Of a DNA stretch of 38,329 nucleotides, positions 23,726 through 38,329 are shown in pieces. The notes beneath the pieces are model-generated. The model had not been told where the DNA came from. It saw only the letters and a program-made list of their open reading frames with translations, and did not search any database. The position numbers were made by a program, and so were the translations under genes. The stretch lies in UHGV virus genome UHGV-1488451. One strand, given 5' to 3'. Source of the DNA: a virus. Each line of letters begins with the position of its first letter. Position 1 is the stretch's first letter.

Positions 23726-24940
23726 CTACGCACCCGCCGTCAGCGTCACCTTGACGAAAGCCGAAGGCAGCGGAACCATCAGACCGATACGCTCCTCAGC
23801 ACGCAAAGTAACAAGGTTCTTCTCGAAATCATCAGCGTTGGTGTTCGAGGAATCCACACGCAAACCACCCTTGCGGAGGATGGTGGAACCCTGACGGAAC
23901 GCACCCACAAGGGCGGTACCCTTCGGAATGTTGTTCGTCACAACAGTACGGTAGCCCCACACCGGCGGGTCAACCAGAATGCCACCAACACCGTACTGAC
24001 CCTGGAACGGGCCACCAGCAATGTACTGGCCGTTACCGTCCTTAGCGAGACGCAGAACCTCATAGTCAGCGGTGTTCATGATGATGCCGTCAGCAGTCAG
24101 CGGGGTTGCCTGAGCAACCTTAGAGATCGCACTGTACAGGTCATCAAACCAATTGGCTTTCTTAGCAGACGTCACCGTCTGAATGCCGGAGCGGTTCAGG
24201 ATGCCACGCACATTGCTGCCCGTGCCGTCGCCGCTGATCAGCTGCTTTTCCTCCACAACGGAAAGCTCGTAGATGAGCTGGTTGTTAATCCAGTCAGCCA
24301 CGAACCCGAAGTCCGCGATCATCTCGTCGGAAAGCTTCGTCAACGCGGCGATCTTCGACAGAGATTCAGTCACAATGTCAAGATCAGCGAACCGGACATA
24401 GGGTTTCTGCGCCCCCTCAGCCACAGACGCAGGCGCACCCTCGGCGATGCGGTTGGCCTTCTCCACCAAATATTTGATGGTGGGGAGGTCCACATTCGCG
24501 GAACCCATCAGGTCAGCGGCAACCAGCTTCTCACGACGCTGGTTAACAATGCTGCGCTGGTACATGGTGCCGAAACCATCAACCAGCGGGGTTGTCTTAG
24601 CCGGGTCGCCAGCGGCCTTGAACTCAGGTGCGGAAATCTCCAGGCGTCGGGAACCTTGCTGCTTAAGGCTTTCGCCAGCAGACTTCACGAAATGCTCACC
24701 CAGGGATTTAGCCTCAGGCTGCAGCGGGGTTTCACCGGTGTCGATGTTGCGCAGCTTCTCGAAAACCGAGTTGGCTTCCTTCACCTTTGCAAGTTCAGCG
24801 TCGAGGGCTTCGGCCTCGTGGAGGGCTTCTTTCAGTTCGGCGAGCTGCGCATCTGTCACCTCCTCGCCAAACTGCGAGTAGAGGCTTTTTGCATGGTCAA
24901 ACGCGGCGTCACGACGCTTACGCAGGGTTTTGTTACCCAT
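23726..24940 (-). CDS. Major capsid protein (HK97 fold) with N-terminal coiled-coil delta-like region
   Basis: 404 aa; position after protease; N-terminal coiled coil AQLAELKEALHEAEALDAELAKVKE; AAAGGAG before ATG. Confidence 0.85.
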   Translation of the reverse strand: MGNKTLRKRRDAAFDHAKSLYSQFGEEVTDAQLAELKEALHEAEALDAELAKVKEANSVFEKLRNIDTGETPLQPEAKSLGEHFVKSAGESLKQQGSRRLEISAPEFKAAGDPAKTTPLVDGFGTMYQRSIVNQRREKLVAADLMGSANVDLPTIKYLVEKANRIAEGAPASVAEGAQKPYVRFADLDIVTESLSKIAALTKLSDEMIADFGFVADWINNQLIYELSVVEEKQLISGDGTGSNVRGILNRSGIQTVTSAKKANWFDDLYSAISKVAQATPLTADGIIMNTADYEVLRLAKDGNGQYIAGGPFQGQYGVGGILVDPPVWGYRTVVTNNIPKGTALVGAFRQGSTILRKGGLRVDSSNTNADDFEKNLVTLRAEERIGLMVPLPSAFVKVTLTAGA

Positions 24941-26088
24941 TAGTGTTTCTCCTTTTCCAAGATCATGAGGCGGGCACCCAGCTTGTTCAGGGCGCCCTGG
25001 TTATCGCCGCTCTTCTTGGCGGCATGAGAAAACCCCGGGGGTGGTGTTCCCTCGGGGCTAGTGTCGTTTCCGGTCAGCGCGTCACGCATTGATTTCAGCA
25101 TCAACGCCATTGCCTTCGACATTTCCGCGCCGGACTCGGCGGCTTTCACCGCGAGCACTTCGGTTTCCTGGTTCGCGCCGATAGGAACGACACTGACCTC
25201 GTACAGGCGCACCTTGCGAATCTCGAAAACCCAATTGTCGTTGTCTTTCATTTCCGCGCCTTCGACAACATCAAACGCGAAACTCATTTGCGACAAGCGG
25301 CGCTCTTTCAGCAGACGGTAAACCTGGCTAGCTTTCTCATTATCCAGGTCAAGCTTCGCACGGATTTTCAAACCATGATCATCCTCAACAGCCTCAACCA
25401 CCGTGCCAATATTGCTGAACGGGTCTCGGAAATCATGGCCATACAGCAAAGGCAGCTGATTACCGGATTCCTCCCACTCCTTCAACGTGTCCGCAAACGC
25501 GCCCTTACGGATAACATCACCGTAAGAATCCACATTATCGAACACACTTGCATAGGCGACAATCTCGCCCGCCTCAACCTCAACATCATCAGGCTCTTTA
25601 ACCCGAACCTTCAAATCCTTCAACTTCATAAGGGCAACACCTCCTTTCTCACCCCCAGGCAACTCCGGGGGATTCTCATACCAAGCATCAATCCGCGCCA
25701 ACACATCATCAGACGCGCCAGCCTCAGTAGCACGCTCCACACAAACATCGCGCCCAGGGTCAACCAAATGGAACACCGCACCAGCCCCCTCAAACTTGCT
25801 GACAAGCGCAGCAGGTGGATTCTCCGACACAAACCACAACTCATCAACAATCGTCTCAGGGTCAAGCAGCCACCCCACCAAGCCCCTACGCATAGCCAAC
25901 ACCGCATCAACAACACCAGGCGGAACATCAGCCTCCGGCTTGTCGACGCCCCCCACCACCGCAGCAACCGCATCAAAATCAAAACGCGGCACCCCAGCGC
26001 TAGCATTCTCCGCAACAAACACAGACTTGCCAGCAAACGGGGGGCCAACCACAACGTTAACCGCCACCGTCATCACCTCCATCAACAC
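24940..26088 (-). CDS. Prohead protease (HK97 family) with N-terminal P-loop (Walker A) domain
   Basis: Protease motifs AYASVFDNVDSYGDVIRKGAF, LLYGHD, SVVPIGAN; N-terminal roughly 150 aa has GPPFAGKS and VFHLVD in the same frame; GGAGGAG before start. Confidence 0.75.
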   Translation of the reverse strand: MLMEVMTVAVNVVVGPPFAGKSVFVAENASAGVPRFDFDAVAAVVGGVDKPEADVPPGVVDAVLAMRRGLVGWLLDPETIVDELWFVSENPPAALVSKFEGAGAVFHLVDPGRDVCVERATEAGASDDVLARIDAWYENPPELPGGEKGGVALMKLKDLKVRVKEPDDVEVEAGEIVAYASVFDNVDSYGDVIRKGAFADTLKEWEESGNQLPLLYGHDFRDPFSNIGTVVEAVEDDHGLKIRAKLDLDNEKASQVYRLLKERRLSQMSFAFDVVEGAEMKDNDNWVFEIRKVRLYEVSVVPIGANQETEVLAVKAAESGAEMSKAMALMLKSMRDALTGNDTSPEGTPPPGFSHAAKKSGDNQGALNKLGARLMILEKEKH

Positions 26089-27310
26089 TAGGGGGCTCCT
26101 CCCCCGGGTCCACCGCAGTGTTCAACGGCACCAACAAATCATCCCCACCGTCAACCGAAGGCAGGTTGTTCATCGCACGCGCCTCATTACGTGTCATCCA
26201 CGGGCCACCAACAGCGGTACTGGTGACCTGCGCCTTTTCCTCAAACGAGGCGCGCAGCTTCTCCTCAATGTTGAACTCAAAGTAAACGTCGTCTTCAACG
26301 CCGAGCTTTTCCAGCAGGAACACGTTCAGCGTGTCCTCAATCTGTTTGATGATCGGGCCGAGGGAATCCCCGTAGAGACTCTTCCGAAACTCCCTGACGT
26401 TTGAATAGTTCGCATTATCCAGCAAACCAACCATCGTCGGATTGACCTGGAAAACACTAGCCACCGTCGCAAGGGACAACTTGGCCACATCAACGACATC
26501 CTCATCAGACGCTTTAAGATGCATCGACTTGAAAGACATGCCGTCCTCAAGAATCGGAGTGCCACCCGCACCAGAACCACGCCCCGAATACTGCGACTGC
26601 CAAGCCGCCTTAAACCGGCGACGGTCCATACCCTCCCAACGCGGAGCACCCGCAGGACGCTCAATCACACCACTAATACGCGGCCCGTTCTTCCACAACT
26701 GACCACGATACGCAGCAGATTCCAACTGCTCCTTAAGCAAGTCTTTCAGCGTGCGCACCTTCGAAGCACCACGTTTATAACTCCCCGGGGAATAGCCATG
26801 CACACGAATGATCTTCTCCGCCGGAATCTCCAACGGCTCACCAGTCTTATCATCCGTAATCACAATGGATTTCAACGTCCATTTATCTTCCCACCGCAGA
26901 CGATGAACCCACGTCGGAGAAACAGGGTAAATCTCCGGGCCGTCACCAGCGTCACTGATCACCCAAATGAACTCGTCATACAGGCACAGGTCCATGACAG
27001 ACGCATACAGCAGATCATAGAAAACCTGCCCCGCATTGGCCTTCTTCACTAGCCTCGCCAGCGGGCCGGTTCGCACACGCTCACGCCCACCATCCTCAGC
27101 ATGACGATAAACATGAACCCCAATCGACGCGATATTCCGGGCAATGAAATCCGTGACCGTCCGAAGGTGCGGTTGGGAATCCCAAAGCTGCTCCACACTG
27201 AAACCATCAATCGACGCCGCCAACGATTCAAGAATCGGCAACGCCAAACCCTCAGGCTCAGGAACAGACACCGCCGTCGGAAGAAACCCCAAACGCTGCA
27301 AAATCCCCAC
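26057..27310 (-). CDS. Portal protein
   Basis: 417 aa between terminase and protease; acidic C-terminus. Confidence 0.85.
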   Translation of the reverse strand: MGILQRLGFLPTAVSVPEPEGLALPILESLAASIDGFSVEQLWDSQPHLRTVTDFIARNIASIGVHVYRHAEDGGRERVRTGPLARLVKKANAGQVFYDLLYASVMDLCLYDEFIWVISDAGDGPEIYPVSPTWVHRLRWEDKWTLKSIVITDDKTGEPLEIPAEKIIRVHGYSPGSYKRGASKVRTLKDLLKEQLESAAYRGQLWKNGPRISGVIERPAGAPRWEGMDRRRFKAAWQSQYSGRGSGAGGTPILEDGMSFKSMHLKASDEDVVDVAKLSLATVASVFQVNPTMVGLLDNANYSNVREFRKSLYGDSLGPIIKQIEDTLNVFLLEKLGVEDDVYFEFNIEEKLRASFEEKAQVTSTAVGGPWMTRNEARAMNNLPSVDGGDDLLVPLNTAVDPGEEPPSVDGGDDGGG

Positions 27311-27323
27311 CAGAAATCACCTC

Positions 27324-28943
27324 CTAAACAATCAACAAATAATCATCATCACTATCATCTTCACCAGCGTAAATATCATCGAAATCAGGCTCCTCACCCC
27401 CAAAGAAATCCTCATCCGCATACGCCGAACGCCGCTCCTCAGGCTCATGCCCAAGCAACCACCACGCCACATTGCACGCCACCAAAGGCGAAACATCATT
27501 ACGACTACCCGACCTATCCCAAATGAACAGGTCACCAGCCTTCTTATCCTGCGCACCCTCAACAGCCAGATCAAGAACAGGCTGCGAACGATGCCGAAGC
27601 TCACCAGTCGCAATCGCATCAAAAAACCCAAGCACAGACGAAGACATATCCCCACCCTGCCAAGGCACCACCGTCAAACCAGCCTCCTCCAACAACGGAG
27701 CCAAACCAGCAGCCGGAGCACCCTTCACCTGCATTGCTACACGACCATCAAACCAATCGACGGCCCCAACACGAGCTGCGAACCACTCGGCAACCCATCT
27801 AAAACCGGCTCGTTGGGCGACGACTTCAACGTGCGTTCGCCCATCATCACGAACACCAGCGACCGCGACATAGGCGAACTTGCCGTCCACCGCGACATCA
27901 ACCGCCGCCGCCACAGGATTCCCCTCCGCAACACGGGAACCAGCATCAGCGCAAGCACCCCACACGTCAGCAGGAATCTTCCCCGGCTCCAGGGACTCCA
28001 CCCACACACACATTTTCTCAGTGCGGAAACCATCGGGATTCTTCGTCTCCTTCGCCTCAGCCAACAAATTCTTCAAAGTGATGCCGCCCCAACCCATCGA
28101 CGGGTTAGCCTGACGCAGCGCATCAACGTCCGTTATCTCCGCGTCCTGCGACGCTGACCACGAGAACAACGCCGTGGCCATGTCCTCAGTGTCCCCAAGG
28201 TTGATGCGCTCAACCGCTGAATCACGCAGGGATTTCAGCACAATCGAGCGGGCGTCACCAGCGTTGGAGAACCCCCACAATTGCGACTCTGGGCGCGCCG
28301 CAATGGTTGGCTCAATCGAGTTCCAGCCGTCCCACGTAAGCAGCTCACGCATCTCATCAATGAATGCCGTGTCAGCCGAAGCTGAACGCCCACCTTTACG
28401 GTCAGCAGTAGTCACCGACCATGTGGGCAAAGTGCCGAACACATCCAAGCGGCCAGGCACAGGAACCTTGCACAACTCAATCTGCTTGCTACCGTTCGTT
28501 TCCCGCATCCAAGCGCCGTTGAACTCGTTGTCCTTCGGCCTCGGGTCGTTCGGCAAGTACTCACGTAGCACCTCATTATGAGCGGCGATCTTAAACGCGT
28601 CTTTCAACGTGTCCTCAGCAACAGTAAGTTTCTGAGCTGCGGAAACAATCTCCGATGCGCCGAACACAAACAAACGCCACAAGCCGATCACAACCATCAG
28701 CGTTGTCTTGCCGTTCTGGCGGGCCACCTCAACTATGACGCGCTTAAACCGGAAGTCAGTGCCGTCGAGGTTCAGTTCCAGGCCGTGAATCAACAGCCAT
28801 TTTTGCCACGGGTACAGGCGAATACCTAGGAACTCCGCAAACTCAATGGCCTCAAACCCCTTCGACGTCTCCGGGGTTAGTGGGCGCAACGGCGGGGGAA
28901 ACAGGCGCGGCTGCTCGAAGCCCTTAACCTGCTCGACCACCAC
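27324..28943 (-). CDS. Terminase large subunit
   Basis: 539 aa; Walker A VARQNGKTT; acidic C-terminal tail. Confidence 0.9.
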   Translation of the reverse strand: MVVEQVKGFEQPRLFPPPLRPLTPETSKGFEAIEFAEFLGIRLYPWQKWLLIHGLELNLDGTDFRFKRVIVEVARQNGKTTLMVVIGLWRLFVFGASEIVSAAQKLTVAEDTLKDAFKIAAHNEVLREYLPNDPRPKDNEFNGAWMRETNGSKQIELCKVPVPGRLDVFGTLPTWSVTTADRKGGRSASADTAFIDEMRELLTWDGWNSIEPTIAARPESQLWGFSNAGDARSIVLKSLRDSAVERINLGDTEDMATALFSWSASQDAEITDVDALRQANPSMGWGGITLKNLLAEAKETKNPDGFRTEKMCVWVESLEPGKIPADVWGACADAGSRVAEGNPVAAAVDVAVDGKFAYVAVAGVRDDGRTHVEVVAQRAGFRWVAEWFAARVGAVDWFDGRVAMQVKGAPAAGLAPLLEEAGLTVVPWQGGDMSSSVLGFFDAIATGELRHRSQPVLDLAVEGAQDKKAGDLFIWDRSGSRNDVSPLVACNVAWWLLGHEPEERRSAYADEDFFGGEEPDFDDIYAGEDDSDDDYLLIV

Positions 28944-29232
28944 CGGCCGCCTTCATACGCTCCATCACCGAAACAACCGCCACAGGGCGGTCACGGTCCT
29001 CAGGAATTCCCCGCGCCTCCGGCGTGCACCCCAACGCCCCCAACGCCTTCAACAAATGAGGCCCCAAATACAACGCCTTTGTGCGGTCATACCCAGCATC
29101 AACAGGCACGAAATCAATCTGCCGAGCATACGACAGCGCCAGCTCCTGCAATGCCTTATCTGCACCGGTGACGTTCTCGCCACGCGCCTCAATTGAATCA
29201 AGTACAGCCTGTTCAAGCGGCCCAACAGTCAT
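28924..29232 (-). CDS. Putative terminase small subunit
   Basis: About 103 aa from ATG 29232 (GGAAGGAG upstream); overlaps start of large terminase; assignment by position only. Confidence 0.4.
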   Translation of the reverse strand: MTVGPLEQAVLDSIEARGENVTGADKALQELALSYARQIDFVPVDAGYDRTKALYLGPHLLKALGALGCTPEARGIPEDRDRPVAVVSVMERMKAAGGGRAG

Positions 29233-29364
29233 GATTAAAGCTCCTTCCAGAAACCAGGTCTTGCGCGCGCGATACCCCCAAAAACGAGTGGGGGGAGAGG
29301 ACAGGCCCACCCGGCTCAAATGTCCTGGTCAGGTGTGCTGGTGATTTGCTACCCCCTACCGTTG

Positions 29365-29649
29365 TTACCAGGTTTGGCTGGGTTGTCCGAGGGTTGGTTG
29401 GGGTGGTTGGTTGTGGCGTGCGCGGTTGCAGTTGGTGTGTGTTGGTTTGATGTTGTTGGGGTCGTTTTCGAGGTGTGGGTGTGTGCTTGTGGGGTGGATG
29501 TGGTCGAGGTCGCATGCGTTTGGGGTGTGTGGTGGTGCGGTGTAGTCGATTGGTTGGCCGCAGAGGTAGCAGGGGGTGTTGTTTTCTGCGTGTTGTTGGC
29601 GGAGTTGTTGGCGGAGTTTTTTGTTTGCGCGGGTTTCTTTGAATGGCAT
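29365..29649 (-). CDS. HNH endonuclease
   Basis: CYLCGQPIDY...CDLDHIHP...HLENDPNNIKPTHTNCN (two Cys pairs, H-N-H); adjacent to terminase genes. Confidence 0.8.
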   Translation of the reverse strand: MPFKETRANKKLRQQLRQQHAENNTPCYLCGQPIDYTAPPHTPNACDLDHIHPTSTHPHLENDPNNIKPTHTNCNRARHNQPPQPTLGQPSQTW

Positions 29650-29676
29650 GGGGTTTTGGGGGTTGATATGGGTAAA

Positions 29677-29700
29677 CCCCCATGCTTTTTGGCATGGGGG
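29677..29700 (-). terminator. Strong GC hairpin (CCCCCATGC / GCATGGGGG) upstream of HNH gene
   Basis: 9-bp perfect stem, 6-nt loop; only short T-runs flank it, so terminator versus attenuator role is unclear. Confidence 0.3.
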
Positions 29701-29740
29701 TTGTCTGCGACTGAGTTTAGCAGTGTGGTTGCCCGTTTTG

Positions 29741-30310
29741 TCAATGTGACAGTTTTTTATCTATGTCTGTTTGTGAGTATTTGAGTGTGCCGTCGAGGCT
29801 GTGGTGTGCTCTGATGTGTCCTCGTGCTCTCCAGTGGTGGATTTGTTTGCGGGTGATGTTGTGGCCTTGTTGCCATGCGTGGTCGATGGCTTGTTGGATG
29901 GTGAGCCATTGGCCGTGGGGGTTGATGGGTGGTTCGCGGTGGTGGCGTTGGGTGAGGTCTTGTTCGATGGTGCGTAGTCCTTGTTCGATGGTGTCGGGTT
30001 CGGGGTGGTGGTTGATGAGGTGGGTGTTGTGGCTGAGCCAGGTGCACCAGCGTGAGAGTGGTTGGTTGGCTGCGCTGGCTGGGAGGTGGATGTTTGCGTG
30101 TTTGAGGATTTGGTGGATGATGTCGCGGAGTTCGTCTTCGGTGGTGATTTTGTTTTCGAGTTGGGTGAGGTTGAGGGGTGGGCGTGGTCCGGGGGTGGTG
30201 TGGCCTCCTTCTTTGGGGATGGTGGAGTCGATGTGTGTGGGGTGGAGGTCGGTTTCGAGTTCGTGGGTGAGGGTGGCGAGGTTGGTGAGGATTTTGTTGA
30301 TGGTGATCAT
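29741..30310 (-). CDS. Hypothetical protein, possible DNA-binding
   Basis: 189 aa; strongly A+C-biased codons (T/H/N/Q/P-rich protein). Confidence 0.4.
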   Translation of the reverse strand: MITINKILTNLATLTHELETDLHPTHIDSTIPKEGGHTTPGPRPPLNLTQLENKITTEDELRDIIHQILKHANIHLPASAANQPLSRWCTWLSHNTHLINHHPEPDTIEQGLRTIEQDLTQRHHREPPINPHGQWLTIQQAIDHAWQQGHNITRKQIHHWRARGHIRAHHSLDGTLKYSQTDIDKKLSH

Positions 30311-30474
30311 GGTTTGGGTTCTTGGAGTTCTTTGGTGGCTTTGGTGGTGAGGATGATGGAGCCGTAGGTGTCGAAGGCTAGGTATCCGTGGTCGATGAGG
30401 ATGTTGGTCATGGTGTGGTTGATGCGTTTGCCGGAGGCGAAGCGTCGGAGGGCGTTGATGTGGTTGGGGGTCAT
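30307..30474 (-). CDS. Small hypothetical protein
   Basis: ATG at 30474 (MTPNHINALRRF...); the His-rich extension to 30558 in the ORF track is probably compositional artefact. Confidence 0.35.
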   Translation of the reverse strand: MTPNHINALRRFASGKRINHTMTNILIDHGYLAFDTYGSIILTTKATKELQEPKP

Positions 30475-30574
30475 TGGTTTGTGTCTTTCTTGGTGGTGAG
30501 GTGGGTGATTGTTCCGGGGTGGGTGAGGGTGCTTATGGCGGTGGTGATGATGATGCACGCGATGATGGTGAGGG

Positions 30575-31108
30575 TCATTGTTCGTCTTTCTGGATTTCGT
30601 ATCGTTCTTCTTGGTGGTCGCGTTCGAGCCTGTCTGCGCGTTCCCAGTCTGGGAGGGTGTCGTCGTTGGTGTCGTCGTGGGGGTAGGGGTGTGCCATGTG
30701 GGTTTCTTTCTGGGTGAGGTGGATGTGTGCGCCGGGTGTTTCGCCGGGGTGTGCGTAGCGTTTGTGGGTTATCCAGGTTGTGATTTGGCTGTCGTCGTTG
30801 ATTGCTCCTGATTGGGTGAGGGCGTCGCCGAGGGCGCGTTGTAGTTTGTCGAGGTCGGGGGTTTTGGTGTGTGGTTCGGTTTTGTTTTTGAGGCGTTTGG
30901 GGCGGGGGAAGATGAAGATTGCGGTGATGGTGATTGGTCCTTGGATTGGGGGTTTGTGGTTGTGGGTGAGGGTTGCGGTTTGGGTGAGGGCTTTGCGCCA
31001 GGCGGGTAGGTGTTTGCTGGATTCGATACTGCGGCCGCCGCCGATGTAGCGTTTGGAGCCTTGGGGTCTGGGGGTGCCTGGGGTGAAGAATGTGAGCGTT
31101 TGGGTCAT
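30575..31108 (-). CDS. rusA: RusA-like Holliday junction resolvase
   Basis: Motif TPDLDKLQRALGDALTQSGAINDDSQI...K matches the RusA Asp-rich catalytic core. Confidence 0.75.
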   Translation of the reverse strand: MTQTLTFFTPGTPRPQGSKRYIGGGRSIESSKHLPAWRKALTQTATLTHNHKPPIQGPITITAIFIFPRPKRLKNKTEPHTKTPDLDKLQRALGDALTQSGAINDDSQITTWITHKRYAHPGETPGAHIHLTQKETHMAHPYPHDDTNDDTLPDWERADRLERDHQEERYEIQKDEQ

Positions 31109-31238
31109 TGGAACATGCTTTCTATGTGGGGGTGGTGGTTTGTTTTGGGTTGGGGGTGGGTGTTATTTTCGCGCGTGAGGCTTGGGGCGGGTTGGTGGCG
31201 CCTGGTGGCCTGTTGGGCGGAGCGTGGTCACAACAGTC

Positions 31239-32426
31239 TCAAAACGGGGGTTTTGCGGCGTTGGAATTGCCGAACCATACACGACTACCCGCCGAGGGGT
31301 TTTCGGGCGTGTGAGGCGGCAATGAGGGCGGATTTGGGGCATTCTCGTTTCGTCTGGCCGCCCGGAGTTGAGCGTATTCCGGTGGGAGGTCCACCGGCTC
31401 GGGGGGTGTCCGATGGTCGCATTTGCGGGCTACGCTGCGGTTTTCCGGCGAATCCGGGTCGATTCCTCGGGTCGGGACCAGGACAAAACCCCGCTCGTCG
31501 CACCACGGGCAAGCGTCGATTTCGGCGCGTCGTGCCTGCTTGGCTTGGGTTTTCTGGTCCTGGAACCAGCGTCTGGCGGCTGCGCAGGCCCCGCAGGGTG
31601 GCACCTGGTCGCGTGGCAGCCCGGCGTGTTCGCGGCATCGGGGGTCATCCGGCGTGGACCAATCGGCGGGTGTGTCGCCGGTCACGGTTGGGGTGTTGGG
31701 GGGCGGCGCGTCAGCGGCCGCCGAACCCTGGTCGAAACTCGGGGCGGGGGCGTGTGCGCTTGCGCTCTCGCTCGGAAGATTTTCTCTCTTAAGCTCCCCT
31801 TTATTGGTATTGGTCGGGCGCAGGTCCGGGCGCGCGCGTCGCGCGCGAGGAGTGGACATGCGGGTGGCGTCCGGGGTGGACATTTCGGCGTTTTCGCTGG
31901 TAGAGGAAAAATCGCTCGACCTATTCGGATTCATTTCGTTTTCATTTCGATTTCGATTCGCGTTCGATTCGGATTCATTTCGATTTCGATTCGGATTCAT
32001 TTCGCGTTCGGATAGGTCGAGCCTCCCTGTTTCAGTATCGGCGTTGCAGCCCCTCCTGCGGGCCTTTGACTCGCGTTCAATACGGCGTCGATTCGAGCGT
32101 TGTTCGCGGGTCTGCTGATAGTCCCCCCAGTCCCTAAAAGTGAACACGATCACACCATTTTCATTGACTGATTGCGTCCACAACCCCGCATCAACAAGCG
32201 CCTGAATCTGAACCGCGCTCCCCCGCAAAGCCCGCACCTGCTGACGAGGAATCACCCCATCAGTCTCAAATTCAGCGCACCAACTCCCAGCCTTCGCCCA
32301 TAAACCCACCGCAGCATTAGGAAGGGAGGAAATCTTAGGATGCGCATGAAAACGGTCGTCAATCATGAACCAGCTCATTACGCACCGAGTCCAACATTCA
32401 AGCAGACAACACTGATTGACCTGCAC
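31239..32426 (-). CDS. Replication initiation (O-like) protein candidate with internal iteron-encoded low-complexity linker and C-terminal Cys cluster
   Basis: N-terminal folded-looking domain, central NPNRNRNESESNANRNRNENEMNPNR linker encoded by the tandem repeats, C-terminal CGAC...CPWC; start uncertain (32426 GTG, 32378 or 32366 ATG). Confidence 0.5.
   Translation of the reverse strand: MQVNQCCLLECWTRCVMSWFMIDDRFHAHPKISSLPNAAVGLWAKAGSWCAEFETDGVIPRQQVRALRGSAVQIQALVDAGLWTQSVNENGVIVFTFRDWGDYQQTREQRSNRRRIERESKARRRGCNADTETGRLDLSEREMNPNRNRNESESNANRNRNENEMNPNRSSDFSSTSENAEMSTPDATRMSTPRARRARPDLRPTNTNKGELKRENLPSESASAHAPAPSFDQGSAAADAPPPNTPTVTGDTPADWSTPDDPRCREHAGLPRDQVPPCGACAAARRWFQDQKTQAKQARRAEIDACPWCDERGFVLVPTRGIDPDSPENRSVARKCDHRTPPEPVDLPPEYAQLRAARRNENAPNPPSLPPHTPENPSAGSRVWFGNSNAAKPPF
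31914..32020. repeat. Iteron-like array: about 8 tandem copies of an 11-bp unit (nnTTCnnTTCG family) flanked by imperfect inverted repeats; candidate origin of replication
   Basis: Seen directly: GATTCATTTCG / TTTTCATTTCG / ATTTCGATTCG / CGTTCGATTCG ...; 11-bp period; flanks CTCGACCTATTCGGA and TTCGGATAGGTCGAG. Confidence 0.5.
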
Positions 32427-32545
32427 GTTTCCTTATCCAGGAACAAGCCGTACCGGCGAACAGCGAAAATGGCGATGCCTTGCGGCGTGAACAAATTCAC
32501 CCATTCAGGTTTCGGGGCATTCATTTCCCTTATCTTTCATCAAAA

Positions 32546-32573
32546 CCACCCCCACAACACACGCTGCGGGGGT
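32546..32573 (-). terminator. Stem-loop (CACCCCC / GGGGGTG) with T-run on minus strand downstream of SSB gene
   Basis: 7-bp G/C stem; plus-strand AAAA at 32541-32544 gives UUUU after the hairpin on the minus transcript. Confidence 0.4.
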
Positions 32574-32590
32574 GGCAAAAACAAATACTG

Positions 32591-33028
32591 TTAGAACGGA
32601 GGTTCGCCCGTATCCTGCGGGGTGGCCGGGGGTGAAGAACCCCACGCGCCCCCCTGCTGAGAAGGCGCATACCCAGGGCGCGCCTGCGAACCAGCAACCT
32701 CAACATCAGCCACAGACTGCAACGCATCAACCGCCATGACCTTAATCATCGACCGTTGACTACCGTCCTTGGCTTCCCACTCCTCAGTGACCAGCTTTCC
32801 AACCACCGTGACCTTAGAACCCTTCCTCAGGTAGGACATTGGTTCAGCAGCCTCACCCCACAAGGTGACTTGGATGAACAACTGGTTTGTGGTCTCCCAC
32901 TCACCAGTCGGGGTTTTCCTGCTGTCGGAGCACGCGAGGCGGAAGGTGCTGCATGGTTTGCCGTTGGAGGTGAACCGGAGTTCAGGGTCGCTGACCAGTC
33001 TTCCGGGGAAATGCTGGTACGGAATCAT
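32591..33028 (-). CDS. ssb: Single-stranded DNA-binding protein
   Basis: N-terminal GRLVSDPELRFTSNGKPCSTFRLA (OB-fold SSB signature), Gly/Gln-rich tail ending in acidic-aromatic tip EPPF. Confidence 0.85.
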   Translation of the reverse strand: MIPYQHFPGRLVSDPELRFTSNGKPCSTFRLACSDSRKTPTGEWETTNQLFIQVTLWGEAAEPMSYLRKGSKVTVVGKLVTEEWEAKDGSQRSMIKVMAVDALQSVADVEVAGSQARPGYAPSQQGGAWGSSPPATPQDTGEPPF

Positions 33029-33894
33029 GGCATGCCTCCCTCGGCTTCGGCCGCGAGGGCTTCCATCTCAGCAAGGGTGTTGTAGCGCTCACTGTAGGCG
33101 TGCTCTGCGGCTTCGCGCTGCGGGTGATCGGCGGGGATTCCCCTGGCTTGCTCGGCCACCGTGTTCAGGTCGTCGATGCTGGCTGCGGTGTTGAATGCCG
33201 CGATGATGCTGTCAACGTCGATCTGTGGTGCCTGCTTGGATTCGAGGGCGGCTTTCACGCCTGAGGCGCCGCGCTGCTGGCGGGGCTTGTCGAGGCGTGT
33301 GGCCTTGGCCTGCACGCGGCTTTCCTCGAGCTGCAAATCCTCAGCCGTGTAGGTGATTCCCAACAACACGTCGGGGGCCAGTTTGCGGCACACCTCGGAT
33401 AGTGCCTTGGCGTAAAGCATGGCTTGCGGGTCGCTTTGGTACTTCTTGTTTGAGGTGTAGCCTGCACGCTTTGCCCGGTCGATGGTCCATGTACTGGTTT
33501 CCTGCTCACCCTTCGGCGAGGTTCCAGTCACCGTGACGCTTTCATCTGTGGACTCAATGGTGTCAAACCTGTAGCCGCGCGCCTTCAAAAGCCCAGACAT
33601 AGTGCGCGCGTAGATCGCGGGTGTGCCGTGCACAACGAAAATCTGCTGCAGGGACTGCAGGGGCTTCAACCCCAATTCAGCACCGTAGAGTATTGCCGCT
33701 GCTCCGTTTTCCGGCTTGCCCTTGTAGGTCTGTGGCACCATGTCGGTGCTGCACAATGCCACCGCTAGTTTGTGGGCGGTTTCCATTGCCTGTGCTTGCC
33801 GCATTAGCAGGTCTATGGCGTCGTCACTGACGTCGCCGGTGGGCATTACCTCAGCCTCGGCGGGTGGGGTGATGCGGTCGATTTCCTGGCTCAC
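33025..33894 (-). CDS. recT: RecT-like single-strand annealing protein
   Basis: NGAAAILYGAELGLKPLQSLQQIFVVHGTPAIYA resembles the RecT family core; paired with YqaJ-like exonuclease. Confidence 0.7.
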   Translation of the reverse strand: MSQEIDRITPPAEAEVMPTGDVSDDAIDLLMRQAQAMETAHKLAVALCSTDMVPQTYKGKPENGAAAILYGAELGLKPLQSLQQIFVVHGTPAIYARTMSGLLKARGYRFDTIESTDESVTVTGTSPKGEQETSTWTIDRAKRAGYTSNKKYQSDPQAMLYAKALSEVCRKLAPDVLLGITYTAEDLQLEESRVQAKATRLDKPRQQRGASGVKAALESKQAPQIDVDSIIAAFNTAASIDDLNTVAEQARGIPADHPQREAAEHAYSERYNTLAEMEALAAEAEGGMP

Positions 33895-34322: not shown

Positions 34323-34579
34323 TGTTCAAGCTCCTTTGCTTCCGTAATGCCGTCTTTGGTGAGCAGGTGGGTTACACCACGGGGGTGGTTGTCCATGTTG
34401 ATTGCGGCGGGCTGGAAAATCCCCACCCATTCGCCGCTTATGTGCTTTTTCACCAGGTCTTGGCACTGCATGTACGTTTCGGCCTGCACCGCCAAGATCA
34501 TGTCAGGGTGGGCGGGCGCCCACTCAGGGTGCGTGTTTTTACGGTACTTCTCGTGAAATATCACGTAAAGGGTTTTCAT
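34319..34579 (-). CDS. Hypothetical protein
   Basis: 86-aa ORF, translationally coupled to neighbours. Confidence 0.4.
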   Translation of the reverse strand: MKTLYVIFHEKYRKNTHPEWAPAHPDMILAVQAETYMQCQDLVKKHISGEWVGIFQPAAINMDNHPRGVTHLLTKDGITEAKELEQ

Positions 34580-35586
34580 AGCTTTGCTTTCAGGTTCGGG
34601 CGCAGCATGACCCCACCGCGTGAGGTTGCTGCGCGGGTAGCGATGGTGGTTTCACCCATGAGGGCTTTTTTGGCGTTGCCCATGCGGTCAAGCAGCCTGG
34701 TTTTCGCCGCTGTCGCTGCCTGCGCGGCGGCTTTCTCCATGCGCAGGGCGGTGAGGATTTCTTCGGCCTCGGCAGGGGTGAGCTGCACTTCCTCATCCGG
34801 GTTGATGTCCGTATGCAGGCCCCGCACTGTTTGGTAGGTGCTGGTCGTGTCATCAAGCGGCGGCGGAGTGTCTTCCTGCAGGGATGCCCACCAGCCTTTG
34901 GCCACGTCCACCAGCCCGTCGAACAGGTCAGCGTCCCAGGGGATTTCATGTTCCTCGGCTTGGTGGAACGGCCCCAGCACAAGAACACTTGCCTGGTGAA
35001 TGCCGCTGACTCCCATTTGCCACACCACTTGCGTGTGGTAATCCGCTGGCACACTGTCTGGTTCGCCGGGTTTCCCCCAGTCGTCGAGGCTTCTAGCGGT
35101 TTTGCATTCCAGGATTCGGAATGCCCTGCCCCTGCGTGCCCTGCGGTCGAGTGTGGCCAGGTTGGGGAATGGCAGGTCATCACGGGTGTAGGCGACTTCC
35201 CCGGCGTTTAGTTGCCATGTTTTGGGTTGGCGGCGTGCCCACCAGTCAGCTAGCGCCAACTCGGCGGCGTGCCCCCAGTCCGCAATGTCTTGTTTCATCG
35301 GGGTTGGCGGGATTCGGCCGGCCATTTCGTGCCACAGGGTGTATTGGCTGGTGAATCTGCTGACTCCGAGGATTGCTGGGATTTTCGACGCGGTGATCAT
35401 TCCCCGCCATTCGTCGGAGCCTGGCGGCGGGGGATTCTTGACGGTTCGGCTTGTCATCGTCACAGCACCAGGATTAGCGACAGTGTGAAGATCAGGGTGC
35501 ATAGCGCACCGAGGATTGCGATGCTGATGACTGGTGGTGGTTCTTGGAATCGTTGTGGGGGTTTGCGGTGGGTCATAGTAGTTCAC
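34576..35586 (-). CDS. YqaJ-like (lambda-exonuclease-type) recombination exonuclease
   Basis: ITASKIPAILGVSRFTSQYTLWHEM and ILECKTARSLDDWG...QVVWQMGVSG match the YqaJ PD-(D/E)XK pattern; true start probably an internal Met. Confidence 0.7.
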   Translation of the reverse strand: MNYYDPPQTPTTIPRTTTSHQHRNPRCAMHPDLHTVANPGAVTMTSRTVKNPPPPGSDEWRGMITASKIPAILGVSRFTSQYTLWHEMAGRIPPTPMKQDIADWGHAAELALADWWARRQPKTWQLNAGEVAYTRDDLPFPNLATLDRRARRGRAFRILECKTARSLDDWGKPGEPDSVPADYHTQVVWQMGVSGIHQASVLVLGPFHQAEEHEIPWDADLFDGLVDVAKGWWASLQEDTPPPLDDTTSTYQTVRGLHTDINPDEEVQLTPAEAEEILTALRMEKAAAQAATAAKTRLLDRMGNAKKALMGETTIATRAATSRGGVMLRPNLKAKL

Positions 35587-37481: not shown

Positions 37482-37727
37482 TTAGATGTTGACAAGATCG
37501 AACCACCCGACCAGGTAGTCTGAGTCGCCCATCATGGTTGCAATGCGGAGGGCGTCGGCGGCGGTGACGTATTTCCGGCCATGCCTAAAAAGCTCCAAAT
37601 CCGATACCTGGTATCCGAGTGTGGCCGCCAACCGTTCATCGGTGTTCAGGTTCAGCATGTGCGCAATGTTTTCTAGCGCGCCGCGCCGGAATCGGTATTT
37701 AGGCGCGGTCATTGTCATCACTGTCAT
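37482..37727 (-). CDS. Small HTH DNA-binding protein (Cro/XRE-like candidate)
   Basis: 81 aa; HTH-like segment RLAATLGYQVSDLELFRHGRKYVTAADALRIA. Confidence 0.5.
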   Translation of the reverse strand: MTVMTMTAPKYRFRRGALENIAHMLNLNTDERLAATLGYQVSDLELFRHGRKYVTAADALRIATMMGDSDYLVGWFDLVNI

Positions 37728-38329
37728 TGGCTTCTCCTTTGTCTTCCTTCTCTGGTTTCCATGATTCGGCGCGAATGGCGATCATGTCGTGGATTGCTTG
37801 GTATTCGGCTTGCCAGCGTTCTTGTGTGGCTTCGTCGTGGCGCTTCCAGTAGTTGGCGCGGCGTTCGGCGACGGCTTGCATCATTGTGGTTAGGGTGCCT
37901 TCCCAGCATCCGATGCAGACGAATATTTCATCGGTTCCGGTGTGCGCCGCAGTTACCCAGCGGCTTTCTACTCCTGCAGGGCCAGCAACGAAGATGTGTT
38001 GTTTTTGGAACACCTCCGCGTTGCCGGACACCCGCGCGTTGCCGGACACCCACGCGTTGCCGGACACCCGCGCGTTGCCGGACACCCACGCGTTGCCGGA
38101 CACCCGCGCGTCGCCGGACACCCACGCGTTGCCGGACACCCACGCGTCGCCGGACACCCACGCGTCGCCGAACACCCACGCGTCGCCGAACACCCGCGCG
38201 TCGCCGGACACCCACGCGTTGCCGGACACCCACGCGTCGCCGAACACCCGCGCGTCGCCGGACACCCACGCGTTGCCGGACAAGTTCGATTCCTTTTCAA
38301 TGAAACCGCCGAGTTCGCCTTTATCCACA
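37699..38329 (-). CDS. C-terminal portion of hexapeptide-repeat protein (about 15 repeats plus about 95-aa C-terminal domain); 5' end continues beyond window end
   Basis: ORF-track GTG at 38328 is an edge artefact; the frame remains open to the window edge and matches the N-terminal part at window start. Confidence 0.6.
   Translation of the reverse strand, partial: VDKGELGGFIEKESNLSGNAWVSGDARVFGDAWVSGNAWVSGDARVFGDAWVFGDAWVSGDAWVSGNAWVSGDARVSGNAWVSGNARVSGNAWVSGNARVSGNAEVFQKQHIFVAGPAGVESRWVTAAHTGTDEIFVCIGCWEGTLTTMMQAVAERRANYWKRHDEATQERWQAEYQAIHDMIAIRAESWKPEKEDKGEANDSDDNDRA
38008..38277. repeat. 18-bp tandem repeat array, about 15 units with A/G and C/T variants, encoding [W/R]V[S/F]G[D/N]A hexapeptides
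   Basis: Direct reading; protein NAWVSG DARVFG DAWVSG ... NARVSG. Confidence 0.9.

What the first reader, a model, noticed from the sequence alone, without database searches (positions are those of the whole stretch)
29320..31200. Strand-asymmetric composition island: plus strand strongly G+T-rich over about 2 kb
Across the HNH-to-RusA genes the plus strand is visibly dominated by G and T, so the minus-strand genes use almost only A/C-rich codons. Their proteins are T/H/N/Q/P/K-rich yet still carry clear HNH and RusA motifs. The rest of the genome is balanced. Because stop codons are rare on both strands here, the ORF track over-calls long ORFs. The cause could be foreign origin or a strand-specific mutational process; this is a by-eye observation with no computed skew values.
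Basis: seen in the sequence. Interest (0 to 1): 0.65.

Follow-up and report, generated by a model that had tools for sequence, protein, structure and literature searches.

The report
Two-letter-coded right end of a phage
The last 1.9 kb of this human-oral phage chromosome, up to its packaging cut site, encodes working genes almost only in A and C on the sense strand, and comparison of 16 related genomes shows the bias is being actively kept, which no described process explains.

Summary
On window 29319-31238 the plus strand is 77% G+T (keto skew 0.49-0.63; rest of the genome -0.04 +/- 0.18). Third codon positions of the minus-strand genes are 86-98% A/C.

The island is not foreign. A relative (L063, TerL 76% identical) carries normal-composition orthologues in the same order.

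The island's left edge is the cos site. Homology to the mapped BFK20 cos predicts 29306-29318, and two independent contigs end at 29319 and 29305. The island is therefore the right-terminal 1.9 kb of the virion DNA, and its A/C strand ends 3' at the terminus. Late genes beyond cos carry a weaker mirror bias, and related phages show graded versions.

In 16 genomes, island synonymous sites change almost only by A<->C swaps (60, against 22 transitions). Flanks show 170:38 and 297:95 (p about 1e-17 to 1e-19). Island transitions are mostly singletons. A selection-like force therefore maintains the bias, which argues against raised deamination.

My best mechanism is inferred, not shown. The phage's YqaJ exonuclease would expose this 3' strand for RecT annealing. 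Host NucS/EndoMS erases incoming G or T alleles that form G.T, G.G or T.T mismatches, which would make {A,C} an absorbing alphabet.

The parts
29319..31238 (-). Composition island. The sense (minus) strand is 77% A+C and the plus strand 77% G+T. It is the right-terminal 1.9 kb of the virion chromosome.
   Evidence: Searches give composition. One search gives codon positions. One search shows sense RNA MFE of -14.6 against -48.2 kcal/mol per 150 nt. Searches show the substitution pattern switching at these edges.
29306..29318 (-). Predicted cos site: a 13-nt 3' overhang, 5'-TGAGCCGGGTGGG-3' on the minus strand.
   Evidence: It is homologous to the mapped 3'-protruding cos of BFK20 (TGAAGGGGGCGAA), and is followed by the shared motifs CTCTCCCCAC and ATCGCGCGCGC. 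Logan contig L140 ends at 29319 and L147 starts at 29305. L060 starts with a fold-back of this end.
29365..29649 (-). HNH endonuclease, 94 aa, the last gene before cos. Third-position A/C is 0.98.
   Evidence: Pfam PF01844 3.3e-6. phrog_338 1e-23. 45% identical to the normal-composition L063 HNH.
29675..29702 (-). The only strong stem-loop in the island: an 11-bp stem and 6-nt loop between the 189-aa gene and HNH. It may be a terminator.
   Evidence: -26.8 kcal/mol for the 96-nt stretch, z = -4.3. The loop is inverted in L049/L057.
29741..30310 (-). 189-aa protein of unknown function (phrog_12885). Third-position A/C is 0.95.
   Evidence: phrog_12885 4.6e-22. The L063 199-aa orthologue hits the same family at 2.3e-40. 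Alignment.
30307..30558 (-). 83-aa ORF. The real gene is probably its last 55 codons (30307-30474), as called in public contigs. The His-rich N-terminal extension is doubtful.
   Evidence: An orthologous ORF is present in L063 after HNH.
30471..30578 (-). Small hydrophobic ORF of 35 aa (MTLTIIACIIITTAISTL...), called as 35-37 aa in related contigs.
   Evidence: No family match.
30575..31108 (-). RusA Holliday-junction resolvase, 177 aa. Third-position A/C is 0.94.
   Evidence: Pfam PF05866 1e-14. phrog_140 5e-31. Homologues at 61-65% identity have normal composition.
31109..31238 (-). Intergenic leader of the island, with a 40-nt run of pure A/C on the sense strand (31125-31164). The inner edge of the island lies at the stop codon of the initiator gene.
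   Evidence: L143 shares the initiator C-terminus but has different genes downstream, so this is a mosaic junction.
31239..32426 (-). Replication initiator gene, with an intermediate-skew shoulder. Third-position A/C is 0.5-0.7 in its last two thirds and about 0.2 in its first part.
   Evidence: phrog_2447 1.8e-41. Sliding third-position profile.
31908..32032 (.). Likely origin of replication: 8-9 iterons of 11 bp flanked by a 14-nt inverted repeat, inside the initiator gene.
28924..29232 (-). Terminase small subunit, the first gene after cos. It has the mirror bias (third-position A/C 0.26).
   Evidence: Pfam PF23931 2e-17.. The 102-aa start is taken from public calls.
27324..28943 (-). Terminase large subunit (third-position A/C 0.26).
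33025..33894 (-). RecT single-strand annealing protein.
   Evidence: Pfam PF03837 7e-6.
34576..35586 (-). YqaJ-type (lambda-Exo-like) 5'->3' exonuclease.
   Evidence: Pfam PF09588 5e-13.
32591..33028 (-). Single-strand DNA-binding protein.
   Evidence: Pfam PF00436 2e-20.

Best explanation
Shown:
- The island is the right-terminal 1.9 kb of a cos-type temperate siphophage from human oral metagenomes. The host is probably a Corynebacterium-like actinobacterium.
- Ordinary genes (RusA, two small ORFs, a phrog_12885 protein, HNH) have been recoded in place so that the strand ending 3' at cos uses almost only A and C.
- The bias is anchored on cos. It is mirrored more weakly on the other side of cos, and related phages show weaker, graded versions.
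- A selection-like force holds it in place today. A<->C changes pass freely, while changes that put G or T on the sense strand are about 5-fold under-represented and stay rare.

Inferred mechanism:
1. After terminase cuts cos, the right end is the free double-strand end, as in lambda.
2. The phage's own YqaJ 5'->3' exonuclease would leave exactly the A/C strand as a 3' single-stranded tail.
3. RecT anneals that tail to sibling genomes.
4. The actinobacterial mismatch endonuclease NucS/EndoMS acts only on G.T, G.G and T.T mismatches and erases the incoming allele. A tail allele that replaces a resident A or C with G or T is therefore removed. A<->C swaps, G<->T swaps and every change away from a resident G or T survive.
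5. Repeated over many cycles, this biased conversion makes {A,C} an absorbing alphabet for the invading strand.
For: - Composition and codon data.
- In-place origin: orthologues with normal composition, in nearly the same order, in L063.
- cos at 29306-29318: homology to the mapped BFK20 cos and contig termini at 29319 and 29305.
- Mirror bias and graded relatives. In L051 third-position A/C rises from 0.5 to 0.72-0.89 over the last 2.6 kb, then flips to 0.20-0.26. In L063 it goes from 0.60-0.68 to 0.19-0.31.
- Maintenance. At third codon positions of 16 genomes, the island shows 22 transitions, 60 A<->C and 2 other transversions. Early flank: 170, 38 and 16. Late flank: 297, 95 and 17. Fisher odds ratios are 12.2 (p=4e-19) and 8.3 (p=8e-17).
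- The change of substitution pattern coincides with the island edges.
- Island transitions are 69% singletons, against 46% in the flanks (p=6e-5).
- Against orthologues, G is replaced by C about as often as by A, and T by A nearly as often as by C. The mismatch filter predicts this.
- The phage encodes YqaJ, RecT, SSB and RusA.
- Literature. NucS cleaves only G/T, G/G and T/T (PMC6159521). RecT-annealed oligos that make these mismatches are erased more than 500-fold while all others escape (PMC11551767). Only the right end of lambda is free after cos cutting (PMC2082072).
- Exonuclease polarity, the free right end and NucS specificity together predict the observed sign.
Against: - No step of the mechanism was tested here.
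- The host, and its possession of NucS, are inferred only from relatives.
- The inner edge is a step, with third-position A/C falling from 0.95 to about 0.65 within about 150 nt at a gene boundary. A resection-length model predicts a gradient. I can only appeal to a mosaic junction there.
- A<->C changes are about twice as frequent per site as class-preserving transversions in the flanks. The model does not predict this.
- Whether conversion among sibling genomes is strong enough to reach a 95% bias is unknown.
- The population data fit direct selection on composition as well as biased conversion.
- BFK20 and LGCM-VI show no island. Whether they lack RecT-type recombination was not checked.
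Confidence: 0.35

Rival explanations
1. Direct natural selection for a sense strand that cannot fold, acting on the mRNA. An RNA made of A and C cannot form any Watson-Crick or wobble pair. Candidate benefits are Shine-Dalgarno-independent or helicase-free translation, escape from G- or U-specific endoribonucleases, or a long C-rich, G-poor Rho-loading zone. Such a zone would insulate the late genes from early read-through.
For: - Sense RNA is almost structure-free: -14.6 against -48.2 kcal/mol per 150 nt.
- The sense strand has about 3.3 times more C than G.
- The inner edge coincides with a stop codon, and the untranslated leader holds a 40-nt pure A/C run.
- No Shine-Dalgarno sequences are visible before the island genes.
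- The population data show selection-like maintenance.
Against: - The bias ends within a few bases of cos, not at a recognisable transcription signal.
- The weaker mirror bias in the late genes and the gradient toward cos in L051 are not predicted.
- A single G or U in an A/C background has almost no structural effect. Strong per-site suppression is therefore hard to get from selection on folding.
- Rho loading does not require loss of U.
- The island probably spans a terminator-like hairpin, so it may cover two transcription units.
Confidence: 0.2
2. Direct selection on the DNA of the terminal segment rather than biased repair. One version is a 3' single-stranded tail that cannot fold and so anneals better with RecT. 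A second is a strand free of the G and T targeted by ssDNA-modifying defences such as DarT. A third is a first-injected segment free of palindromic restriction sites.
For: - The bias is anchored on cos and sits on the 3'-ending strand.
- YqaJ, RecT and SSB are present.
- 6-bp palindromes number 3.1 per kb against 10.2 elsewhere.
- Maintenance is selection-like.
Against: - Palindrome avoidance over 5% of the genome protects nothing unless early anti-restriction genes lie there. None was recognised, and the genes point toward the end.
- The per-site effect on folding is tiny.
- The DarT idea rests on my own knowledge and was not tested.
- The step-like inner edge is unexplained here too.
Confidence: 0.15
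3. Strand-asymmetric mutation pressure of the kind seen in mitochondria or adenovirus. The strand whose 5' end lies at cos would be repeatedly left single-stranded or resynthesised, for example by displacement synthesis from the cos nicks. It would then accumulate C->T and A->G changes until it is G+T-rich.
For: - The bias lies exactly on the amino/keto axis expected from deamination.
- It is symmetric about the genome ends and graded in L051.
- Non-coding parts are biased too.
Against: - If raised G->A and T->C rates on the sense strand caused the bias, synonymous transitions should be at least as frequent as in the flanks. They are about 5-fold rarer (0.040 against 0.21-0.22 per site), and A<->C changes dominate.
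- Island transitions are kept at low frequency.
- Against orthologues, G->C is as common as G->A.
- The known phage enzyme here, a 5'->3' exonuclease, would expose the opposite strand.
- The sign at the iteron origin is opposite to a leading-strand pattern.
Confidence: 0.1
4. Foreign origin: a module imported from a donor phage whose DNA has this composition.
For: - The inner edge is a mosaic junction.
- There is no nucleotide match in the phage collection.
- The 189-aa protein has no relatives beyond near-identical copies in the large protein search.
Against: - Gene order matches L063 for the 189-aa gene, HNH, TerS and TerL, and L063's versions have normal composition.
- No donor lineage with such composition was found among 139 loci fetched.
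- Relatives show weaker versions at the same place.
- Import would not explain the ongoing maintenance.
Confidence: 0.04

Closest known systems
Vertebrate mitochondrial heavy/light-strand asymmetry, and the end-anchored skew of strand-displacement replicons such as adenovirus and phi29 (own knowledge)
   Same: One strand is G+T-rich and the other A+C-rich. Sense-strand third positions are almost free of G and T. Protein composition is pulled toward Thr, His, Pro and Asn. In linear replicons the polarity is tied to the genome ends.
   Different: Those biases are mutational, driven by deamination of the exposed strand, and they span the whole genome. Here the bias covers 1.9 kb and is more extreme (third-position G+T 2-6%). 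Transitions are suppressed rather than elevated.
Biased gene conversion, such as GC-biased conversion at eukaryotic recombination hot spots (own knowledge)
   Same: It is a fixation bias that mimics selection. It acts on all site classes, including non-coding and amino-acid-changing sites, it is localised, and it skews the frequency spectrum.
   Different: The axis is amino/keto and strand-specific, not GC against AT. The proposed agent, NucS acting on RecT-annealed tails, has never been linked to conversion bias in the papers I could search.
NucS/EndoMS non-canonical mismatch repair of Actinobacteria (PMC6159521, PMC11551767)
   Same: Its substrates are mismatches made only of G and T. That is exactly the pair of bases missing from the strand that would act as incoming ssDNA. 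It is known to erase RecT-delivered alleles.
   Different: It is described as a replication-error and recombineering filter in the host, not as a shaper of phage genome composition. Its action on this phage was not tested.
HNH-cos-terminase packaging module of HK97-like phages; Corynebacterium phage BFK20
   Same: HNH is the last gene, cos lies about 45-80 nt after it, TerS and TerL follow, and conserved motifs lie next to cos.
   Different: BFK20 has no composition island at its right end.
Replication-associated GC/keto skew with a polarity switch at the origin
   Same: There is a sharp sign change of skew along the chromosome, with the cumulative GC-skew minimum near 28.5-29.5 kb.
   Different: The switch lies at cos, not at the iteron origin. 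The sign at the iterons is the reverse of an origin. The magnitude is 3-10 times typical values.

Membership tests
HNH-associated cos packaging module (HK97/BFK20 type) | An HNH endonuclease gene lies directly upstream of TerS and TerL, with cos between them. | tested here: met
   HNH 29365-29649, TerS 28924-29232 and TerL 27324-28943. cos is predicted at 29306-29318 by homology to BFK20 and by contig termini.
HNH-associated cos packaging module (HK97/BFK20 type) | HK97-type portal, S78 protease and capsid lie downstream. | tested here: met
   PF04860 8e-74, PF04586 5e-37 and PF05065 6e-39.
Horizontally acquired genomic island | A break of synteny, meaning the genes have no orthologues at the same place in relatives. 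| tested here: not met
   L063 has the phrog_12885 gene, HNH and the small ORF upstream of TerS/TerL, with normal composition. The small ORF lies after HNH there rather than before the phrog_12885 gene.
Horizontally acquired genomic island | The composition matches an identifiable donor. | tested here: not met
   No locus outside the phage's own lineage reaches comparable skew for the same reason.
Replication-driven strand asymmetry (leading strand G+T-rich) | The polarity switches from minus to plus at the origin. | tested here: not met
   The minus-to-plus switch is at cos. At the iterons (31908-32032) plus-strand skew goes from plus to minus.
ssDNA-deamination asymmetry (mitochondrial or adenovirus type) | The bias is produced by an excess of C->T and A->G on the G+T-rich strand, so transitions at neutral sites are frequent. 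| tested here: not met
   Island third-position transitions are 0.040 per site against 0.21-0.22 in the flanks. A<->C is 0.110 per site.
ssDNA-deamination asymmetry (mitochondrial or adenovirus type) | The bias grades with exposure, that is with distance from the end. | tested here: inconclusive
   A gradient is seen in L051. In the window there is a plateau and then a step.
One-off deaminase hypermutation | Differences from close relatives are almost only one class of transition. | tested here: not met
   Against orthologues, G->C is about as common as G->A, and T->A nearly as common as T->C. The island is shared by all 16 population genomes.
Biased gene conversion | The favoured and disfavoured allele classes differ in fixation and in frequency spectrum at synonymous and non-coding sites. 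| tested here: met
   This cannot be told apart from direct selection on composition.
Biased gene conversion | It is confined to a recombination hot spot, and the bias arises in heteroduplex repair. | not testable with these tools
   The free right end as a recombination entry point is known for lambda (PMC2082072). NucS specificity comes from PMC6159521 and PMC11551767. Neither was measured for this phage.
Rho-utilisation (rut) region | C-rich, G-poor, unstructured RNA of about 80 nt or more. | tested here: met
   Sense strand is C 0.43 and G 0.13. MFE is -14.6 kcal/mol per 150 nt.
Rho-utilisation (rut) region | Rho-dependent termination occurs there. | not testable with these tools
   No transcript data are available.

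The most novel reading that the evidence does not exclude
A new evolutionary force in phage genomes. The host mismatch endonuclease NucS filters strands annealed by the phage's own RecT at the free cos end. This produces a strand-specific amino/keto biased gene conversion strong enough to rewrite 1.9 kb of functional genes into a two-letter alphabet. If true, it should act on every recombining DNA end in Actinobacteria, including prophages, plasmids and recombineering substrates.
Probability: 0.3. Interest if true: 0.9.

Novelty: new variant of a known kind. Interest (0 to 1): 0.78.

Why it matters
Strand skews are normally weak, genome-wide by-products of replication or transcription. This one is confined to the last 1.9 kb before a packaging site, is close to the coding limit, and is demonstrably held in place in a natural population of a common human-oral phage.

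It shows that nuclease and resolvase genes can stay functional when written almost entirely in A and C. That bears on how far coding sequences can be recoded.

It offers a directly testable link between an actinobacterial repair enzyme of known mismatch specificity, phage end recombination and genome composition.

There is also a practical consequence. Gene callers annotate the wrong strand across this segment in public records, so HNH and its neighbour are missing from annotations of this phage group.

Tried and rejected
- Nucleotide search of 27000-33000 against the phage collection found no match.
- The RusA query in viral contigs matched no pattern.
- The broad protein search with the 189-aa protein returned only near-identical copies.
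- I first took negative skew upstream of TerL in Bifidobacterium and Alloscardovia prophages as the same phenomenon. In L041, the one I inspected, it comes largely from a Thr/Pro-rich LPXTG-type surface protein. I did not inspect the Bifidobacterium loci. I did not count any of these as the same phenomenon.
- The three- and five-genome polymorphism counts were underpowered, and one run had a frame error. The 16-genome analysis replaced them.
- The enriched motif GGTGAGG (12 copies against 1.2 expected) falls in frame as Leu-Thr codon pairs in the copies I checked (four in RusA, one in the small ORF). It is probably a by-product of the restricted codon set, not a Chi-like signal.
- There are no G-quadruplex motifs (four runs of three or more G) in the island.
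- There is no sigma-70-type promoter match in 28800-32600, and terminator-like hits are at chance level.
- There are no Rfam families and no tRNAs.
- Pure G/T runs are too short (40 nt at most) to scan collections for other islands by pattern.
- Literature searches for keto skew in phages, for cos-centred asymmetry and for NucS-linked biased conversion found no earlier description.
Full report
**1. The observation**

The window is a complete, circularly permuted temperate siphophage genome of 38.3 kb.
- It encodes an integrase, an endolysin, an HK97-type portal, protease and capsid, TerS and TerL, HNH, RusA, a replication initiator, SSB, RecT and a YqaJ exonuclease.
- Nearly all of these genes lie on the minus strand.
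- It matches a public 'MAG TPA: Caudoviricetes sp.' record. Its exact TerS protein is listed in 361 blocks of the assembly collection, including human oral metagenomes.
- The closest cultured relatives by TerL are Corynebacterium phages at 54% identity. The closest named RusA relatives come from Corynebacteriaceae.

The reported island is real.
- Over 29320-31230 the plus strand is G 0.433, T 0.341, C 0.133, A 0.093.
- In 1-kb windows GC skew reaches +0.57 and AT skew -0.55.
- The 300-nt keto skew is 0.49-0.63 inside. Outside it averages -0.04 with sd 0.18 and never exceeds 0.43 in absolute value.
- Among 84 loci encoding related terminases, the skew change across the terminase ranges from -0.11 to +0.33. 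Here it is 0.70.

**2. Anatomy**

The genes in the island are, in order: RusA (30575-31108), a 35-aa hydrophobic ORF, a 55-aa ORF nested in the 83-aa ORF, a 189-aa protein of phrog_12885, and HNH (29365-29649).

| Measure | Island genes | Elsewhere in the genome |
|---|---|---|
| Third-position A/C | 0.94-0.98 (0.86 for the 83-aa ORF) | 0.22-0.61 |
| First-position A/C | 0.67-0.76 | about 0.36-0.56 |
| Second-position A/C | 0.64-0.74 | about 0.50-0.62 |
| Valine | 0.2% | 7.6% |
| Histidine | 10.4% | 1.4% |

Non-coding parts are biased as well. The leader before RusA contains a 40-nt run of pure A/C on the sense strand.

Three consequences follow.
- The sense RNA is almost unable to fold: -14.6 against -48.2 kcal/mol per 150 nt.
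- Six-base palindromes are three times rarer.
- Stop-free ORFs appear on the wrong strand. Public gene calls pick them in place of the 189-aa and HNH genes.

The one strong structure is an 11-bp hairpin at 29675-29702. Its loop is inverted in a relative.

**3. The left edge is cos**

In Corynebacterium phage BFK20, HNH is the last gene. A mapped 13-nt 3'-protruding cos (TGAAGGGGGCGAA) follows it, and then come the motifs CTCTCCCCAC and ATCGCGCGCGC before TerS.

The window has TGAGCCGGGTGGG followed by the same motifs. This places cos at 29306-29318.

Two independent Logan contigs support this. One ends at 29319 and the other starts at 29305, bracketing those 13 bases. A third contig starts with a fold-back of this end.

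The island therefore ends at the last base pair of the virion's right end, and its A/C strand is the one that ends 3' there.

**4. The inner edge and the origin**

The inner edge lies at the stop codon of the replication-initiator gene (31239).
- That gene carries 8-9 iterons of 11 bp at 31908-32032, a likely origin.
- Its last two thirds have intermediate third-position A/C (0.5-0.7), and its first part about 0.2.
- A relative, L143, shares the initiator's C-terminus but has different genes downstream. The edge is therefore also a mosaic junction.

**5. Not foreign**

L063 (TerL 76% identical) carries a 199-aa phrog_12885 protein, HNH (45% identical) and the small ORF upstream of TerS and TerL. 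The small ORF lies after HNH there, not before the phrog_12885 gene, but the rest of the order matches. All have ordinary composition. RusA homologues at 61-65% identity are also ordinary. The island genes are thus orthologues recoded in place.

Against these orthologues, G has been replaced by C about as often as by A, and T by A nearly as often as by C. This is not a transition-only pattern.

**6. A pattern centred on cos**

Beyond cos, TerS, TerL, portal and protease carry the opposite bias (third-position A/C 0.22-0.28). It fades to 0.4-0.5 by the tail genes. Related phages show milder forms.

| Phage | Third-position A/C before cos | After cos |
|---|---|---|
| Window | 0.94-0.98 | 0.22-0.28 |
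| L051 | rises from about 0.5 to 0.72-0.89 over the last 2.6 kb | 0.20-0.26 |
| L063 | 0.60-0.68 | 0.19-0.31 |
| BFK20, LGCM-VI | no island in the keto-skew profile | none |

At both virion ends the strand ending 3' is therefore the A+C-rich one. The effect is strong at the right end and weak at the left.

**7. The bias is being maintained**

I aligned 9.3 kb from 16 non-identical genomes of this phage population. Variable third codon positions were classified as follows.

| Region | Sites | Transitions | Class-preserving transversions | Other transversions |
|---|---|---|---|---|
| Island | 544 | 22 | 60 (all A<->C) | 2 |
| Early flank | 772 | 170 | 38 | 16 |
| Late flank | 1408 | 297 | 95 | 17 |

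- Fisher odds ratios are 12.2 (p=4e-19) against the early flank and 8.3 (p=8e-17) against the late flank.
- Transitions are about five times rarer per site in the island. A<->C swaps are as frequent as class-preserving transversions elsewhere, or more so. The island is therefore not simply younger.
- The change of pattern coincides with the island edges.
- Island transitions are singletons in 69% of cases. The figure is 46% in the flanks (p=6e-5) and 51% for island A<->C changes (p=0.02).

If the bias came from raised deamination, synonymous transitions should be at least as common as in the flanks. The data instead show a selection-like force, either selection or biased conversion, against G and T on the sense strand.

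**8. Mechanism (inferred)**

Three pieces of established knowledge fit together.
- YqaJ/lambda-Exo-type nucleases digest 5'->3' and leave the 3'-ending strand (own knowledge of the family). That strand is the A/C strand here.
- Actinobacteria lack MutS/MutL and use NucS/EndoMS, which cleaves only G/T, G/G and T/T mismatches (PMC6159521). In M. smegmatis it erases RecT-annealed alleles that form these mismatches more than 500-fold, while all other mismatches escape (PMC11551767).

Working through the twelve possible replacements on an incoming strand gives a simple rule.
- A resident A or C can be replaced only by the other of the two.
- A resident G or T can be replaced by anything.

{A,C} is therefore absorbing for the invading strand. 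This predicts the amino/keto axis, the strand, the free A<->C exchange, the contribution of both transitions and transversions, and the anchoring at cos with a weaker mirror at the other end.

The model leaves three things unexplained or unchecked.
- It does not explain the step at the inner edge, other than by the mosaic junction.
- It does not explain the roughly two-fold excess of A<->C changes.
- None of its steps was tested here. I give it 0.35.

**9. Rivals**

- Selection for an unfoldable, C-rich and G-poor mRNA (translation, RNase escape or Rho loading) explains the inner edge at a stop codon. It does not explain the precision at cos, the mirror bias or the loss of U (0.2).
- Direct selection on the terminal DNA (an unfoldable 3' tail, defence avoidance or palindrome avoidance) remains possible (0.15).
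- Mutational asymmetry is disfavoured by section 7 (0.1).
- Foreign origin is disfavoured by section 5 (0.04).
- Assembly artefact is excluded, because many independent assemblies share the island.

**10. Novelty**

Full-text searches found no description of a cos-anchored composition island, nor of NucS-linked biased conversion. Strand asymmetry as such is well known. A local, near two-letter, actively maintained recoding at a phage terminus appears to be a new variant of it, and the candidate mechanism would be new.

Noticed in passing
window 31908-32032: There are eight to nine 11-bp iterons (consensus about TTCATTTCGAT) flanked by a 14-nt inverted repeat (31914-31927 / 32009-32022). They lie inside the replication-initiator gene and encode an Asn/Arg/Glu-rich linker. 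This is probably the phage origin, 0.7 kb from the island.
   Followed up: partly
window 29675-29702; L049/L057 equivalent: An 11-bp G+C-rich hairpin is the only strong structure in the island. Its 6-nt loop (TTTTTG on the plus strand) is replaced by its reverse complement in a 95%-identical relative, which indicates a loop inversion.
   Followed up: partly
window 38017-38282 and 1-77: About 19 copies of an 18-bp tandem repeat run across the window's ends, so the window is circularly permuted. They lie in an ORF (37699-38328, minus strand) with YdcK beta-solenoid/bactofilin-like repeats.
   Followed up: partly
L144-L146, L149-L158 (public gene calls): Automated gene calls in public assemblies replace the 189-aa gene and HNH with reverse-strand ORFs of 57-154 aa. 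HNH is therefore missing from annotations of this phage group.
   Followed up: yes
L140, L142/L065, L060-L062, L147, L148: Assemblies often break at the island's two edges. One Logan contig (1845 bp) is essentially the island alone. Another 34.8-kb contig runs from inside TerL around to the end of the initiator gene and so lacks the island. The cause could be physical ends at cos, coverage loss in extreme-composition DNA, or both.
   Followed up: partly
window 30965-30989 (RusA codons about 41-48): A short, highly divergent patch (12 differences in 25 nt) separates two allele groups, KALTQTATLTHN and KALTTSAETAHN. It looks like a recombination tract, and both versions stay A/C-rich.
   Followed up: partly
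window 29951-30989, plus strand: GGTGAGG occurs 12 times in the island, against 1.2 expected from a first-order model. In the copies I checked (four in RusA, one in the small ORF) it reads in frame as CTC ACC (Leu-Thr) on the sense strand. In RusA these arose from different ancestral dipeptides, which looks like convergence under the restricted codon set.
   Followed up: partly
window 23726-29232 (late genes): TerS, TerL, portal and protease have G/T at 72-78% of third positions, with T3 above C3. The bias decays toward the tail genes. BFK20 and LGCM-VI late regions show no such skew, so it is not generic host codon usage.
   Followed up: partly
window 30475-30558: The upstream part of the 83-aa ORF encodes a His-rich stretch (MHHHHHRHKHPHPP...). 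It overlaps the 35-aa hydrophobic ORF in another frame. Relatives vary here (35 or 37 aa). Which frame is translated is unclear.
   Followed up: no
L041 3871-4998: An Alloscardovia prophage carries a 375-aa secreted protein with a Thr/Pro/Gln-rich stalk and an LAHTG sortase-like motif next to RusA. This moron-like surface protein produces a local A+C skew of -0.5 by itself.
   Followed up: no
L010 (CAVCBD010000009.1): A contig binned as Acutalibacteraceae has exactly the window's length (38329 bp) but only a 36%-identical TerL and no nucleotide similarity. This appears to be a coincidence.
   Followed up: yes
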